Shown: positions 130 to 10,649 of the stretch, piece by piece
How positions within the stretch are numbered: the stretch's first letter is position 1
Layout of the letters: every line of letters begins with the position of its first letter
DNA from: Octopus sinensis
Taxonomy: Eukaryota
Direction of reading: 5' to 3'
Length of the DNA stretch: 10,649 bases
Assembly (NCBI RefSeq): GCF_006345805.1
Contig: NW_021827364.1
Coordinates: 1 to 10,649, forward strand
The notes under the pieces: generated by a model
The model's input: only the letters and a program-made list of their open reading frames with translations
What the model was told of the DNA's origin: nothing
The model's database searches: none
Made by a program: the position numbers and the translations under genes

Positions 130-390
130 ACTATAGCCACGGGCTGGCCAGATGGAAAGTGAATGAAGCCTCTAACATATGTGTGTGTGTTGTTTGTGTG
201 TGCGTGTGTGTCTTTGTGTCTGTGTTTATACCCACCACCGCTTGACCACTGCTATGAGTATGCTTAAGTTCGCCGTAACTGAGCGGTTTGGCAACAGAGA
301 CCGATAATATAATCGCAAGTTTCAAAGAACAATAAGCGCTGGGCTCAATTCATTGGCCGCAGTCTAATGAATAATATAAGAAAATAAAAG
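130..390 (+). mobile_element. Degenerate 3' portion of an Octopus-type SINE with internal (GT)n tract
   Basis: Motif order ctatagcc..gggc..cca / (GT)n / tctttgtgtctgtgttt / cgcttgac / ccgtaact.agcggtt.ggcaa.agagaccgat / tggccgcagtc.aatga / A-rich tail matches my recollection of an abundant octopus SINE body and tail. The tRNA head is absent. Recall only, no search run. Confidence 0.65.
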
Positions 391-2272: not shown

Positions 2273-2377
2273 CGGATTTAAATATATATACCATTTTCTC
2301 TTTCCATGAACGTACTCCAAATTTCCCTCCTTTATACACCTCTCTGTAATATGTGTGTGTGATCTATATTTGTTATG

Positions 2378-2414
<37 letters not shown>
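2378..2414. repeat. (TA)n microsatellite flanking the ribozyme-bearing unit
   Basis: Direct inspection. Confidence 0.85.
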
Positions 2415-2416
<2 letters not shown>

Positions 2417-2769
2417 GAGTAGTTGAATGAATTATCTTATTAAGGATAATTCGAAAGATAACCGATACCTGGGTAGCAAATTCACATCAGAAAGAACACG
2501 GTTGAAGCTACGTCCCTAGGGCATAGACTGCGTGTCTTCGTGCGGAAATTTGTATGTTTATTTTAAAATTATAAGTATATGAAAGAATGGAGTTGAACGA
2601 CTAGTTAACAAATATCCTTTATTCTCGACATATGTTTCGAAGGCTGCATATTCCTAATTCCGAAGGAATAAGGAGTACATTATGCAGATTTCTCATCAGG
2701 AAAATCAAGGAACTTATGTCGACATCAAAATGCACAAAAAACTTTTAGCTGACCGCTCTCAAGGAACCC
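2415..2769 (-). mobile_element. Putative hammerhead-containing short retroelement (retrozyme / non-autonomous Penelope-like unit)
   Basis: ~355 bp of complex non-coding sequence bounded by (TA)n at both ends. Contains a full hammerhead core, with AATAAA 3 nt downstream of the predicted cleavage site on the minus strand. Boundaries are inferred from the microsatellite edges. Confidence 0.55.
2615..2711 (-). ncRNA. Type I hammerhead ribozyme
   Basis: Minus strand reads UCCUUGAUUUUC-CUGAUGA-[54-nt stem II: GAA..CUGCAUA..UCCU.AUUCC-UUC-GGAAU.AGGA.UAUGCAG..UUC]-GAAA-CAUAUG-UC/GAGAAUAAAGGA. All core nucleotides are present (CUGAUGA = 2699-2693, GAAA = 2638-2635, GUC = 2629-2627). Stem I has 11/12 pairs including one G-U; stem III is the palindrome ACAUAUGU. 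Predicted cleavage is between 2627 and 2626. Confidence 0.85.
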
Positions 2770-3676
2770 ATATATATACATACAAAATAATTCGGACTTG
2801 TTCTTGCTGACCATGCGACTTTACCTGAGCCTGCATAATACCTGAACATAATATTTTGCGGAAACGTTCTTTTCGCGATTTAACATCACACAGAACTAAG
2901 TATGTTCCTTTTCGTTCATATCTTTTTGTTATAATGAATTCTATTCGGAAGTACAACATGGTTCACCTCCCAGTTTTCTGTCCAGTCGAACACAGTTCAA
3001 CTGCCTCTGTTGAAAGTCAACTTACGTATTTTATGAGATTTGTTTAAAGCGGTTTTCGTTTCTCTTCTCTTCTTTTTCCTTTCGTTTTCCTTGTTTGTTT
3101 TGTTAGTTAACTCTAAACTTCAGCAACTCTGTTGAAAATAATTCTTTTACCTGTTTTGGTTTTTTTTTTTGTATTTGTTTCGCAAGATTCTTTGTGCGAA
3201 TTTGTGTGTTGAAACAAATCTTGTATCTTGGGGCGATCATTACACCAATAATAACTTCACTTCTTAATTGTTAGTCAATTGACCAAATTCACTAACAATA
3301 AAAAAAAGTGATATTCAAACAAGCCACAGTAAGATAATTCTTTTATATTATTTATTTTTTCTTTTTTGTTTGAAATCTGTTTGTGTGGGTTTACTGTATT
3401 GTTCCTGCTTAACAATATGATATAAGGCGTCTAAGTCCATTTCAGATCCAATTTTCTGTTTTCTCTCCTCGTGTATTTTATATTTAATTGTTTAATGTAT
3501 TTGTTATTATTCCTTCTTTTATTCTATAAACAATACAATTTGTTTTTTGTAATTTTTCCATCGCGGTGGTGGCGGATAGTTTCGTCATTACACCAATAAA
3601 AGGAAGTTTTAGATATGCTACCGCAAATGTACATGCTAAGCACAAAATAATAACGCAGTATGCAGTATGAGCTACC

Positions 3677-4042: not shown

Positions 4043-4180
4043 TATACATACATACATACACAAATACACATACACGCATATATAAACACGCGCACACACA
4101 CACACATCAGTTATATACATATATGTTTGTATGTGAGCGATTATATATATATATACATACCCACACACATATATATATAT

Positions 4181-4221
<41 letters not shown>

Positions 4222-4304
4222 GTATGTATGTATTGTATGTATGTATGTATGTATGTATGTATGTATATGTATGTATGTAGTATGCATGGCATGTATGTAT
4301 GTAT
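4043..4304. repeat. Compound (TACA)/(CA)/(TA)n/(TATG)n microsatellite region
   Basis: Direct inspection; mixed degenerate units. Confidence 0.85.
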
Positions 4305-4312
4305 AGCAGAGC

Positions 4313-4611
4313 GAAGGCGCAATGGCTCAGTAGTTAGGGCAGTGGACTCGCGGTCGAGGGTCGCGGTTTCGACTCCCAGACCGGGCTTTGTGAGTGTTTA
4401 TTGAGCGAAAACACTTAAAGCTCCAGAGGCTCGGCAGGATGGCGAACCCTGCTGTACTCTTTCACCACAACTTTCTCTCACCTTTCTTCCTGCTTCTGTT
4501 GTACAAGTATTTCGATGGGCCAGCCTTGTCACACTGAATCTTCCCTAGAACTACATTAATGGTACACATGTCTGTGGAGTGCTCAGCCACTTAGCCGTTA
4601 ATTCACAACAA
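4313..4611 (+). mobile_element. tRNA-derived SINE (Octopus-type), 3'-truncated
   Basis: Head GGCGCAATGGCTCAGTAGTTAGGGCAGTGGACTCGCGG with A box TGGCTCAGTAG (4323-4333) and B box-like GGTTTCGACTCC (4365-4376). The body gtgtttattgagcgaaaacac..aaagctcc..ccctgctgtactctttcaccacaac..gtctgtggagtgctcagccactt is recalled from an abundant octopus SINE. Ends at a (TA)n tract. Confidence 0.85.
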
Positions 4612-4612
4612 G

Positions 4613-4647
<35 letters not shown>

Positions 4648-4749
4648 ATATATATAATATATATTATATATACGTTGTGTGTGTGTGTGTGTTGTGTGTG
4701 TGTGTGTGTGTGGTGGTGTTGTACGCATACATATATATATATATATACA
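4613..4749. repeat. Compound (TA)n/(GT)n/(TA)n microsatellite
   Basis: Direct inspection. Confidence 0.9.
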
Positions 4750-5219
4750 TCAAATATAGAATAAATTTCTTCGAAAAAAATTCTATCAATGGCCAGCATA
4801 TTAAAAAATACCTTTAAATTATATGGTTATTGACGATTTGTCTATTTTCAGCATATTTGGCATTAGAATTTTTGTTTCTTTTACCCTTGTTTATAAGTTT
4901 ATATATATGAAATTTACTGTACGTTAACTATGAGTTGTTCAATGCTATTGTTTAGTGCACTGTATGCTGTACTTTCCGGCGTATAACGTGAACATGTATT
5001 ATAAACATTCAAAAGTCACCACTATCTTTCTAAATCCTCTTGTATTTCACATGGATTTTTTAGTTCTCCAAAGTTGTCCTGATGTATTAGAGCCTACCTT
5101 TCTTTGACTATAAATTTTCCTCTGAAGAATTCGCGTAGTATGCCGGTAAATACGCAATCTTCAAATTCTAACTAACATTTTATGTAATAGATAGATATAA
5201 ATAGTTTATCTCTTTGTAC

Positions 5220-5407
5220 AAGCAGTTCTCAACTGCGGGCTCAAGTGGCCCTCAAGCACCCTTCCGGCGGCCCTTGAAGGCCTTCACTGTATAGATATAA
5301 TAGCTTTTTTTTTTTAAGTGACTTGGGTTTTAAATTTTTGAGCAGTCCCCTGATAGAAATCCAGGTTATCGATCTGGCCCGGATAATAAAAAGCTTGAGA
5401 TCCATTG
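5220..5407. mobile_element. Degenerate hAT (Charlie-like) MITE, ~188 bp
   Basis: Left end AAGCAGTTCTCAAC and right end (reverse complement) CAATGGATCTCAAG both approximate the hAT-Charlie-type TIR CAGYGGTTCTCAAC. Subterminal GGCCC motifs occur at both ends. The flanking 8-mers CTTTGTAC (5212-5219) and CTATATAC (5408-5415) match 6/8, consistent with a decayed 8-bp TSD. Confidence 0.55.
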
Positions 5408-5666
5408 CTATATACAGTAATTCCGTGGGCAGGAAAAATTGGTACCAGCTGGATTACTTTCCCTCCTATCTTAAGATTCCATCCGTTATTGAGTCCTTTC
5501 TATATCTTTCTGCAGGCTAGATTGGAAAGTCCAATTTGCGTATGCAACGCATTTTTGACAACTAGCGTGATTAATAATTCAGTGCAGATATGTTGATATA
5601 TTAAATTATTGTCGATATATATACTGTAGCACAGAGTACCACAAGTTTATATGCATCTGCGTCACT

Positions 5667-5685
5667 TTATTATTATTATTTATTA

Positions 5686-5721
<36 letters not shown>

Positions 5722-5741
5722 CATCGTCATCATCATCATTA
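5667..5741. repeat. (ATT)n grading into (ATC)n microsatellite
   Basis: Direct inspection. Confidence 0.9.
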
Positions 5742-5844
5742 CCATCTTTCTGTGGTTATATTCATGCTGTTTGCAAGAATTTCCTTTTGATAGAGCTGCA
5801 AATAAATATACAAACATGCATATACATACACACAGAGGCATGGT

Positions 5845-5890
5845 GTATAACATATATACATATAGCTATATGCATGTATAGATATATGCA

Positions 5891-5955
<65 letters not shown>

Positions 5956-6040
5956 AGAGAGAGAGAAGAAATATAACGTATGTATACATACATACATATA
6001 TATATAACTACGCACACACCACACACACACACAGACACAT
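5845..6040. repeat. Compound (TA)n/(GA)n/(TACA)n/(CA)n microsatellite region
   Basis: Direct inspection. Confidence 0.85.
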
Positions 6041-6176
6041 GTATAGTTAGCGAATAACAGCCAAATGTTGAAAAACATTTTCCCCATGAGAGAAAATTTC
6101 CATTCATAATTACTTTTGTAAGGGAAGAAAATGACAAAGAATTGGAAAAAAATGTACAAAACAAATACGTAAATAT

Positions 6177-6177
6177 G

Positions 6178-6222
<45 letters not shown>

Positions 6223-6236
6223 CTGTGTGTGTGTTG
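6177..6236. repeat. (GT)n microsatellite
   Basis: Direct inspection. Confidence 0.9.
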
Positions 6237-6395
6237 TGATGTACTGTTTCGTGACAGAAAATTCAACAAAAAATTGTACTCAGAGATAGATATTAATTCG
6301 TTATATTTGGTTTGTGCCTGATGAATATATTTGAAATATTTCTCAACATATGAAACTATTTAGTAGCACTTGAACACATGTATCATGTCCAAATA

Positions 6396-6399
<4 letters not shown>

Positions 6400-6453
<54 letters not shown>

Positions 6454-6524
6454 GAGATGAAGAGAGAGGGGGAGGAGGGAGAAAGACAGACAGACGGAAG
6501 GAGAAAGAGAAAGAAAAGGAAAGA
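6400..6524. repeat. (TA)n followed by GA-rich purine tract
   Basis: Direct inspection. Confidence 0.85.
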
Positions 6525-6929
6525 ATTGGTATACTGAAGGTGACTAAATGACTAAATAGTAAATACCGCAAAAGCGAAAATACATCAGAACGAAAGGTTC
6601 AGAAAAAAGAATAAAGAACAAGCAACAGGCAAAAGAATACGTTTTAAAAATTGTTTGGTTTACTGCTGTTAAGTAGCAAAAGAAGAAATAAATACGATAT
6701 AAAAGAGGGGAAAAGTATATGAAAAAGAGAGCAGGTAAGAAAACCCCAGAGATATGTCGTCCGTAACGGATTATCGACAGACATAGTGTTGTATTGTATC
6801 GATGAACTGACCGGAGAAGTGCAACAAGAATGTTTGACAGGTGAAAATCTAGAAATATACGAAAATAAATTTGACAGTTTTTTCCTGTTTTTAAATGGCT
6901 TAAATGACCCTTCCACGAAATAAATGTCA

Positions 6930-6933
<4 letters not shown>

Positions 6934-6967
<34 letters not shown>

Positions 6968-7298
6968 TATATATATTATATATATAATTATAATAATTTT
7001 ATTATATATATATATTATAATTATATATATATATAATATATATAATATTTATATATTAATATCTATATATATATATATAATATTATATATATATATATAA
7101 TTTTTATATATATATATAATAATTATATATATATATATCAAATTATATATATTATATATATAATTATATATATAATATATTCATATATACATTATAATAT
7201 ATACCATATATGTATGTATTATGTATGTAATGTATGTATGCATGTATGTATGTATGTATGTATGTATGTATGTATGTATGTATGTATGTATGTATGTA
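6934..7298. repeat. Long degenerate (TA)n tract (~275 bp) followed by (TATG)n
   Basis: Almost pure A/T from 6934 to ~7210, then TATG units. Confidence 0.92.
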
Positions 7299-7573
7299 TA
7301 ATCCAGTGTCATCTCTCACTCTCTTTCGCTCCCTCACATACGCACACTCCCTTTCTCGCTCCCCCTCATTCTGCTACCCTTTTTCGCTACCCTGCCCCCT
7401 TTCTTTCAATCTCTTCTTGACGTTGTTTTTATTTTTCATTTTTTTTTCTTTCTTTCTATATTACAAACACAGAGGACCAGGTTGAATCAAAATGAACAGA
7501 ATTTGATTTCGATGCCCACAAGTGTATTGTCGATACATGTATGTGTAAACCGTTTATTACGATATTTAAGCAA

Positions 7574-7808
7574 ATACATACATATATACACACCTCTATA
7601 CGTACATATAGACAGACATACATAGATATATGCATACAAACATATATACGCATCCACAAACACATACATTTATATATCTATATATATATAAATATTCATA
7701 CCTAAATATATATATATATGTATATATATAGTATGTAGTATATATGTATGTATGCATGTATATATGTATATGTGTATAAGTATGTATATATGTGTATATG
7801 TGTGAGTG
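7574..7808. repeat. Degenerate TA/TACA/TATG low-complexity region
   Basis: Direct inspection. Confidence 0.8.
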
Positions 7809-8039
7809 TAGATTTTGAGTGTCCTTAAAGTCATTGTGCAGTTGGAATCGTCAATAATTTCTTTTCTAAACAAGCTGTAAAAAAATTGGAAGAACGGATT
7901 CAAATGTCATTAAAGCTCTTAAGCTTATCAAAGAGATTTTGTATGCACAAGGCCTTTATGGGCATTGAATGTACAGTATGGCTTTTCGCATGTGTGCGTA
8001 GGTTTATGCACATGTACTGCAGTATGTGAGTTCTGTGTC

Positions 8040-9563: not shown

Positions 9564-9610
9564 ACTGATGTTTGCTGATGAGGTCTAATACATCGAAACA
9601 TGGCAACAGT
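9564..9610 (+). other. Degenerate minimal hammerhead-like motif (probably inactive)
   Basis: TTG-CTGATGA(9575-9581)-GGTCTAATACATC-GAAA(9595-9598)-CATG-GC-AACAGT. Core boxes have correct order and spacing with a palindromic CATG, but GGC stands where GTC is needed and stems I and II are weak. Confidence 0.4.
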
Positions 9611-9779
9611 TGCTGTCCTTTGCTTGCAATTGCTGCTAGGTTCCATTGTATTTTTCTCCAATTAAGATAAGAAATTTCAAATAATAATTATTTTTTCGTA
9701 CGATGTTCACTAATTATTCACTTACATGCCATTGGATTCATTGAGTTACTTATTATATTTTGTTATCTAGTTGAGTCAT

Positions 9780-10310: not shown

Positions 10311-10649
10311 CAAAGTAGCAGACCCCAGTGATTCTTTGTACCACAAACGGGTTTCATACAAGGCAATTTTCCCATCGACCTGGGAATCACACACATAAGA
10401 AAACAGAATGAATTGCATAATACATAATTTAATTATTACATATACGGTGATGGGATGTGGTGAAACGTTCCTGGCTTTCAGGTTATCGTGAAAAGCTTGG
10501 TTTGAGGCTCAACTTGCCAAGTTCTTTTACAGGGTTTAGAAAAAATGAAGGACCACTGTAAATAAATCTTAGAGGAGAATATGTTGAATAAAATCATAAT
10601 TAATCGATTCTCATGTATTTCCTTCTACCCAAAGCCAAGAACTTTTAGC

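What the first reader, a model, noticed from the sequence alone, without database searches (positions are those of the whole stretch)
2415..2769. ~355 bp ribozyme-carrying non-coding unit inserted in (TA)n: candidate retrozyme or non-autonomous Penelope-like family
Seen: complex sequence starts right after (TA)n at 2414 and returns to TATATATA at 2770. It has no meaningful ORF, TIR or pol III boxes, and AATAAA lies just after the hammerhead cleavage site. Known: metazoan non-LTR retrozymes are a few hundred nt, carry type I hammerheads, can produce circular RNAs and are thought to borrow Penelope-like enzymes. Inference: a microsatellite-targeting, ribozyme-processed short retroelement, possibly uncharacterised in cephalopods.
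Basis: partly seen in the sequence, partly recalled or inferred. Interest (0 to 1): 0.75.

Follow-up and report, generated by a model that had tools for sequence, protein, structure and literature searches.

The report
Truncated end of Penelope-like retrotransposon
This 355-base insert carries a real hammerhead-ribozyme motif, but it is the cut-off end of a protein-coding Penelope-like jumping gene with hundreds of copies in TA repeats, not a separate non-coding element; the ends of those copies likely mark where its RNA begins and where copying starts.

Summary
In detail: a type I hammerhead on the minus strand (predicted cut 2627|2626), TA tracts on both sides, no ORF. The retrozyme reading does not. 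The segment is 97.8% identical to the 3' end of a ~3.55-kb unit encoding a telomerase-like reverse transcriptase and a GIY-YIG nuclease. Of 90 copies picked only by their 3' end, 85 abut TA repeats, their 5' ends scatter over more than 2 kb, and none lies in a head-to-tail array. It resembles the published Hydra clade, but lacks the clade's CxCx5C linker (0 of 6 own proteins; 112 of 113 complete homologs have a 4-Cys linker) while still targeting (TA)n. Two extras: 59 of 62 inverted partner arms start at a second fixed site ~150 nt upstream, and 5' ends pile up at an initiator-like site (10 of 89; replicate 15 of 40 arms). The window copy stops about 10 nt short of that site. The scan already noted two-site arms in other families of this genome. 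Ordinary insertion, mildly interesting family.

The parts
2415..2771 (-). 5'-truncated copy of the 3' end (pseudo-LTR) of a Hydra-like Penelope-like element; 2770-2771 (AT) fit both the element and the TA tract
   Evidence: 97.8% identity over 357 nt to the end of the ~3.55-kb RT+GIY-YIG unit in L057; 40 best genome matches 98-100%
2617..2712 (-). Type I hammerhead motif: stem I, core CUGAUGA (2699-2693), ~54-nt stem II (2692-2639), GAAA, palindromic 3-bp stem III; predicted cleavage 2627|2626
   Evidence: activity not tested
2559..2576 (-). Short 3' end site (el 194-211; most often 200, then 211 and 207); inferred reverse-transcription start of the inverted arm
   Evidence: 59 of 62 inverted partners start at el 190-225; junctions listed
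2429..2552 (-). Structured 'tail' between the two 3' end sites: long stem-loop plus an 8-bp hairpin; inferred protein-binding element
   Evidence: 4 of 20 predicted pairs change on both sides across 13 rows
2411..2418 (-). Long 3' end site (el 355) with 4-nt ATAT overlap between the element's continuation and the target; inferred reverse-transcription start
   Evidence: 85 of 90 copies TA-flanked here, 0 of 90 run on into the ORF leader; 7 exact copies in G000 do run on
2755..2771 (-). Conserved motif (ATG, then a GCTC-loop-GAGC hairpin) about 10 nt downstream of the inferred RNA start; one stem base is mutated in this copy
   Evidence: present in all subfamilies printed; mutation at el 4
2374..2414 (.). 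(TA)n target tract, 3' flank of the element
2770..2782 (.). Short TA-rich tract, 5' flank of the element

Best explanation
The segment is the 5'-truncated, hammerhead-bearing end of a protein-coding Penelope-like retrotransposon inserted in a TA repeat, likely made when the element's own enzyme copied only the first ~355 bases of its RNA. Shown: the full unit is pseudo-LTR, one ORF (reverse transcriptase, C-terminal GIY-YIG), pseudo-LTR; copies end at two fixed 3' sites (el ~200 and 355) next to (TA)n; two-armed copies pair one site with the other; 5' ends scatter but pile up against an edge at el -10. Inferred: the RNA starts at the A of an initiator-like TCATT (el -10) inside the pseudo-LTR; the nuclease cuts both strands of the palindromic TA target; each free end primes reverse transcription internally, one at each site, on either side of a structured RNA tail; most cDNAs stop early, and some, like this one, run almost to the RNA's 5' end. 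This copy lacks the upstream promoter region and the ORF and is likely inert.
For: Identity to the end of the coding unit; pLTR-ORF-pLTR in L031 and L057. Top fold matches of the ORF model are telomerase RTs (E 2e-9); its C-terminal domain matches T4 EndoII and I-TevI (Z 9.4, rmsd 3.4, 114 aligned; Z 8.7, rmsd 2.4, 89 aligned). 446 exact matches of the 3'-end 28-mer, 0 for the reversed control. In 90 of the first 100 listed: 85 TA-flanked against 7% of random flank positions; 62 of 89 have an adjacent inverted arm, 59 starting at el 190-225 and none at 340-366. 5' ends at el -15..0: 10 of 89 against 1.2 expected (p 5e-7, best of all windows). Replicate on other contigs: 15 of 40 arms at risk (12 loci) against 2.4 expected, and 1 in the next 16 nt; 8 of 75 arms in both sets of that call end exactly at -10. 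4 of 5 replicate arms ending at -10 were scored as joined to an inverted arm and none to a TA tract. Literature: partial tandems, inverted 5'-truncated copies, a one-sided tail and (TA)n bias (PMC8557442); two internal RT start sites and cutting of both strands (PMC11167929); promoter inside the pseudo-LTR (PMC2377424).
Against: No RNA end was observed: only assembled contigs were on offer. 13 of 89 copies pass el -15, and L031 has a 5' pseudo-LTR reaching about el -310, so longer templates or template jumps must also exist. 27 of 59 two-armed copies have overlapping arms, which single-RNA twin priming does not give without strand displacement or a second RNA. The asymmetry is not absolute: L036, L202 and L203 have inverted arms ending at 354-355, and L190 has both arms ending at 200. 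The TATA-like motif is only ~15 nt upstream of the inferred start. No uninterrupted ORF was found among the copies of the window's own subfamily that I fetched; ~900-aa open frames are in sister subfamilies.
Confidence: 0.85

Rival explanations
1. The short copies come from a partly independent short RNA. Truncated copies that keep the upstream promoter would make an ORF-less transcript (el -10 to 355) that the family's enzyme moves in trans, a SINE-like or pre-retrozyme stage.
For: 76 of 89 copies begin at or downstream of el -15, and the truncation rate per base is about four times higher inside that region than upstream (0.0039 against 0.0009). Only 7 exact copies join the pseudo-LTR to the ORF. 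Vertebrate retrozymes are proposed to arise from pseudo-LTRs (bioRxiv 10.64898/2026.07.22.740005).
Against: The same products follow from priming in the 5' pseudo-LTR of a full transcript. One short copy (L079) carries about 10 nt of ORF leader. No separate short subfamily was shown; I did not test diagnostic changes.
Confidence: 0.25
2. It is a metazoan non-LTR retrozyme: a non-coding tandem unit that self-cleaves and circularises.
For: Type I hammerhead, AT-rich, size within the range reported for retrozyme monomers (PMC7229834). The scan noted retrozyme families in this genome.
Against: No head-to-tail array in 90 loci. 5' ends are variable and the sequence is continuous with an RT/GIY-YIG ORF. 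One hammerhead cannot release a monomer. No circular joint in 8 runs of contigs (weak).
Confidence: 0.04
3. The pile-up of 5' ends is not an RNA start but a pause or recombination site at the conserved palindrome and hairpin near el -3 to 15, for example fold-back self-priming as proposed for rotifer Penelope elements.
For: Several arms end at el -3 to -1, in the CCATGG palindrome. Palindromes at inverted junctions were read as self-priming on an antisense template (PMC3846280).
Against: The sharpest edge is at -10, upstream of the palindrome, on an initiator-like motif, and few ends lie just beyond it. Only 9 of 59 two-armed copies have arms ending within 15 nt of each other.
Confidence: 0.2

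Closest known systems
Hydra clade of C-terminal-endonuclease Penelope-like elements, including Hydra-1_Obim of Octopus bimaculoides (Craig et al. 2021, PMC8557442; Hydra section, passages, supplement parts 2 and 58 and search hits seen)
   Same: One ORF with RT and C-terminal GIY-YIG; DKT; YRDD; no CCHH; CxxC and CxH around the conserved E and N; hammerhead near the 3' end; (TA)n targets; truncated and inverted copies.
   Different: Unit ~3.55 kb against under 3 kb. The CxCx5C linker is absent, replaced by a 147-166-aa Asn/Ser-rich stretch that ends in a conserved Cys-free motif. RIRWL in place of RWK. Stem II is ~54 nt. The tail is ~145-155 nt, not 30-40. The hammerhead of Hydra-1_Obim is a different sequence, so this is another family (compared by eye).
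Poseidon element PAc of Anolis (Frangieh et al. 2024, PMC11167929; parts 1-2 of 4 read)
   Same: Two internal RT start sites that define the tail; AT-rich targets; both strands cut; hammerhead in the pseudo-LTR.
   Different: PAc sites lie inside the ORF, close together and without homology to the target. Here they lie upstream of the ORF, ~150 nt apart, at 1-4 nt of TA-like overlap.
Penelope elements of Adineta vaga (PMC3846280; passages seen) and Drosophila virilis (PMC2377424; passages seen)
   Same: Solo and inverted pseudo-LTRs, a one-sided tail, TATA/initiator-like motifs or a promoter in the pseudo-LTR, Asn-rich inserts in the ORF.
   Different: A different clade. An intron is known in Penelope; none was seen here. 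The rotifer paper left sense versus antisense template open.
Metazoan non-LTR retrozymes (PMC7229834, passages; bioRxiv 10.64898/2026.07.22.740005, parts 1-3 of 5)
   Same: Type I hammerhead, a few hundred non-coding bases, link to pseudo-LTRs.
   Different: Those are tandem arrays with a ribozyme in each unit and give circular RNA; this is the single truncated end of a coding element.

Membership tests
Penelope-like elements (EN+) | Telomerase-related RT and GIY-YIG nuclease in one ORF | tested here: met
   Pfam finds no RT family and GIY-YIG in only 3 of 53 aligned members
Penelope-like elements (EN+) | Pseudo-LTRs, partial tandems, 5' truncation, inverted 5' copies | tested here: met
Penelope-like elements (EN+) | One-sided optional tail from two 3' ends | tested here: met
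   ends at el ~200 and 355; longer than the published 30-40 bp
Hydra clade | DKT motif; no CCHH; CxxC and CxH around the conserved E and N of the nuclease | tested here: met
   read against the definition
Hydra clade | RWK motif near the N-terminus | tested here: inconclusive
   RxRW kept but K replaced by L in the 3 own proteins that include the region; 100 of 120 homologs match RWK/RWR
Hydra clade | CxCx5C linker between RT and nuclease | tested here: not met
   0 of 6 own proteins; 112 of 113 complete homologs have a 4-Cys linker
Hydra clade | Short (under 3 kb) | tested here: not met
   L057 unit spans 3547 nt; ORF ~900 aa against a median of 707 in homologs
Hydra clade | Hammerhead near the 3' end; (TA)n insertion | tested here: met
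Hydra clade | RT phylogeny groups with named Hydra families | tested here: inconclusive
   Quick tree of 6 own and the best 45 of 120 unnamed homologs, no named references, no outgroup: own rows form one long branch beside P0001 and P0006. Likeness to the published Hydra alignment is by eye.
Metazoan non-LTR retrozymes | Head-to-tail tandem units, each with a hammerhead | tested here: not met
   0 of 90 loci
Metazoan non-LTR retrozymes | No coding capacity in the family | tested here: not met
   continuous with the RT/GIY-YIG ORF
Metazoan non-LTR retrozymes | Circular RNA monomers | not testable with these tools
   only contigs of runs guessed to be RNA
Type I hammerhead ribozyme | Core CUGANGA, GAAA, UH with three stems | tested here: met
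   core and stem III pairs kept in 12 of 12 rows
Type I hammerhead ribozyme | Self-cleavage | not testable with these tools
   needs an in vitro assay

The most novel reading that the evidence does not exclude
This is a distinct Hydra-derived lineage that lost the zinc-finger linker thought to steer TA targeting and still hits (TA)n almost every time. Its hundreds of young copies map the template base by base: a sense RNA starting at an initiator in the pseudo-LTR, twin priming from two sites that bracket a structured tail, run-off copies like this one as strong-stop-like products and raw material for retrozymes, and possibly a second run-off edge at the ribozyme cut, which would be genomic evidence that hammerhead-cleaved RNA serves as template.
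Probability: 0.35. Interest if true: 0.6.

Novelty: new variant of a known kind. Interest (0 to 1): 0.36.

Why it matters
The insertion itself is ordinary. The family bears on three open points about Penelope-like elements. First, whether the Cys linker directs microsatellite targeting, as PMC8557442 suggests; this family targets (TA)n without it. Second, whether the template is the sense or the antisense RNA, left open in PMC3846280; the edge at an initiator-like motif favours a sense RNA. Third, how inverted copies with a one-sided tail form. Sister subfamilies have uninterrupted ~900-aa ORFs, so these points can be tested in vitro.

Tried and rejected
Rfam gave no hammerhead match. Pfam on 3 own proteins gave nothing significant, and a PDB sequence search with a profile gave 0 matches; only the fold searches identified the domains. 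Foldseek on the nuclease domain had no match at E 0.001, though its top 8 rows were GIY-YIG enzymes. An intron across the hammerhead, guessed from splice-like motifs, was dropped: no such joint in 4 runs, a contig bridges the guessed donor unspliced, the acceptor is not conserved, and the ORF's Met lines up with the homologs' starts. No RNA holder was listed on record; depth of contigs was not used. Pile-up of 5' ends just after the ribozyme cut (el 144-153): 11 of 104 arms against 5.3 expected, p about 0.02, first noticed after the fact and in a mixed sample, so unresolved. Pure base pairing as the rule for the long start site is weakened: its position is kept across subfamilies while the TA-like overlap shrinks to about 1 nt in L067. 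AATAAA as a poly(A) signal at el 147 would end the RNA before both start sites; not supported, not excluded. A target-site duplication cannot be read inside TA tracts. The careful tree did not finish. Dfam and Repbase are not on hand. Literature searches found no description of this family, of a linker-less Hydra element, or of twin priming in Penelope-like elements. The O. vulgaris repeat paper (PMC13282606; part 1 of 3 and supplement search) counts 190 Penelope-like families, and its library, which I could not see, may hold this one. The bioRxiv preprint's supplements were not seen.

Full report
Coordinates. The element reads on the minus strand. 'el n' means window position 2770-n; the scripts include an el 0.

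Observation. The tracts, the lack of ORF and TIR, and the hammerhead are there. The core lies at 2699-2635 and C17 at 2627. Rfam misses it, probably because stem II is ~54 nt. In 12 distinct rows from subfamilies whose proteins are 61-91% identical, the core and stem III pairs are kept, stem II has 4 pairs changed on both sides, and slid controls pair far worse. Related rows inflate such counts, and the number of covarying pairs alone is not above shuffles. Cleavage was not tested.

What it belongs to. A DNA search of G000 gave 2800 candidates; the 40 scored are 98-100% identical and dispersed. Most of the 30 loci fetched continue upstream with shared sequence into a GIY-YIG-type and then an RT-type frame. 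L031 is pseudo-LTR, ORF, pseudo-LTR. L057 holds a 3547-nt unit whose end is 97.8% identical to the window copy. A model of the L057 frame (787 aa, pLDDT 77) matches telomerase RTs best, and its C-terminal domain matches T4 EndoII and I-TevI. An RT probe had 7855 candidates, 150 scored at 78% identity or more. Several sister-subfamily copies have ~900-aa open frames; the own-subfamily copies that I fetched are broken.

Ends of the copies. A 28-mer at the 3' end has 446 exact matches. I mapped 90 of the first 100 listed. 85 are TA-flanked at el 355 and none runs into the ORF leader; 7 exact copies in the genome do. 5' ends range from el -1827 to 318. After dropping one duplicate, 62 of 89 have an adjacent inverted arm; 59 of these start at el 190-225, mostly at 200, 211 and 207, each against a TA tract. 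Exceptions exist: 355/355 in L036, L202 and L203, and 200/200 in L190. No head-to-tail array was seen. The stretch between the two sites folds into conserved stems. This is the known one-sided tail (PMC8557442, PMC3846280), explained for PAc by two internal RT start sites (PMC11167929), but here ~150 nt long.

The 5' edge. 10 of 89 copies end at el -15..0 against 1.2 expected. In a replicate of 45 arms from 40 loci on other contigs, 15 of 40 at risk end there (12 loci) and 1 ends in the next 16 nt; over both sets of that call, 8 of 75 arms end exactly at -10. That base is the A of TCATT, which fits the invertebrate initiator consensus (recalled, no call). These ends mostly join an inverted arm, so overlap with a TA tract does not explain them. 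I infer an RNA 5' end. A promoter in the pseudo-LTR is known for Penelope (PMC2377424). The window copy starts at el -1 to 1 and belongs to this class, which is why it looked like a unit. A weaker excess just after the ribozyme cut is unresolved.

Mechanism. Shown: anatomy, target bias, two 3' sites used asymmetrically, and the 5' edge. From the literature: internal initiation and cutting of both strands by a Penelope-like protein. Inferred: each cut end of the palindromic TA target primes at one site; cDNAs truncate or run off at the RNA start; arms join head to head, or one arm is kept alone as here. Against a simple version: 27 of 59 arm pairs overlap, and 13 of 89 copies pass the edge, so second templates, read-through RNA or jumps are needed.

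Relation to known families. Motifs follow the Hydra clade definition: DKT, no CCHH, CxxC and CxH, hammerhead, (TA)n. The 120 best homologs carry Hydra motifs. Two defining features fail: the CxCx5C linker is absent in 6 of 6 own proteins but a 4-Cys linker is present in 112 of 113 complete homologs, and the unit exceeds 3 kb. The linker region is a disordered Asn/Ser-rich stretch that ends in a Cys-free motif conserved across subfamilies. Asn-rich inserts are known from rotifer Penelope elements (PMC3846280). I therefore file it as a Penelope-like element that works like Hydra, a variant lineage, without a formal tree placement. The published octopus family Hydra-1_Obim has a different hammerhead.

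Earlier scan notes. A look-up by sequence found nothing. Notes on other DNA of this genome describe two-armed insertions from two fixed sites in retrozyme and Hydra families. I reached my reading before seeing them and did not check them; they show that the two-site pattern is not new to the scan.

Verdict. A real feature and an ordinary kind of insertion. Interest 0.36, for the linker loss and the mappable template.

Noticed in passing
window 9568-9615, + strand: A second, decayed hammerhead-like core (CUGAUGA, short stem II, GAAAC, broken stem III). One other place in G000 matches at 84% over 50 nt; probably an old Penelope-like end.
   Followed up: partly
window about 2080-2280 and 4310-4612, + strand: Two tRNA-headed SINE-like repeats with B boxes at 2124 and 4365; the second recurs in 17 fetched loci. 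ARAGORN calls no tRNA.
   Followed up: no
window 150-350 and 10458-10646: Interspersed repeats found in 26 and 7 of the fetched loci; not classified.
   Followed up: no
window 2755-2771 (minus) and all subfamilies: The conserved ATG-GGC-TCY start is followed by a stop within 1-6 codons in every subfamily, and it overlaps a conserved hairpin: either a minimal upstream ORF or a by-product of the hairpin.
   Followed up: no
L031:2287-4056 and 4174-7939: A young full-length copy sits directly behind an older subfamily's 3' end, across one microsatellite: repeated targeting of the same tract.
   Followed up: no
run X4, contig 3 (on L057:4850-4991): A deep 1111-nt contig ends with el -1 to 140 of a sister-subfamily copy joined to 969 nt of other sequence. 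It may be a host transcript carrying a run-off copy; strand and RNA status are unknown.
   Followed up: no
L035, L101/L102, L191-L193: Whole two-armed insertions repeated about 0.8-1.2 kb apart with their flanks: local duplications or assembly artefacts, not retrozyme arrays.
   Followed up: partly
P0006: A protein named 'GATA zinc finger domain-containing protein 14-like' from Argonauta hians is a Hydra-type RT and lies near this family in the tree; likely a mis-annotation.
   Followed up: partly
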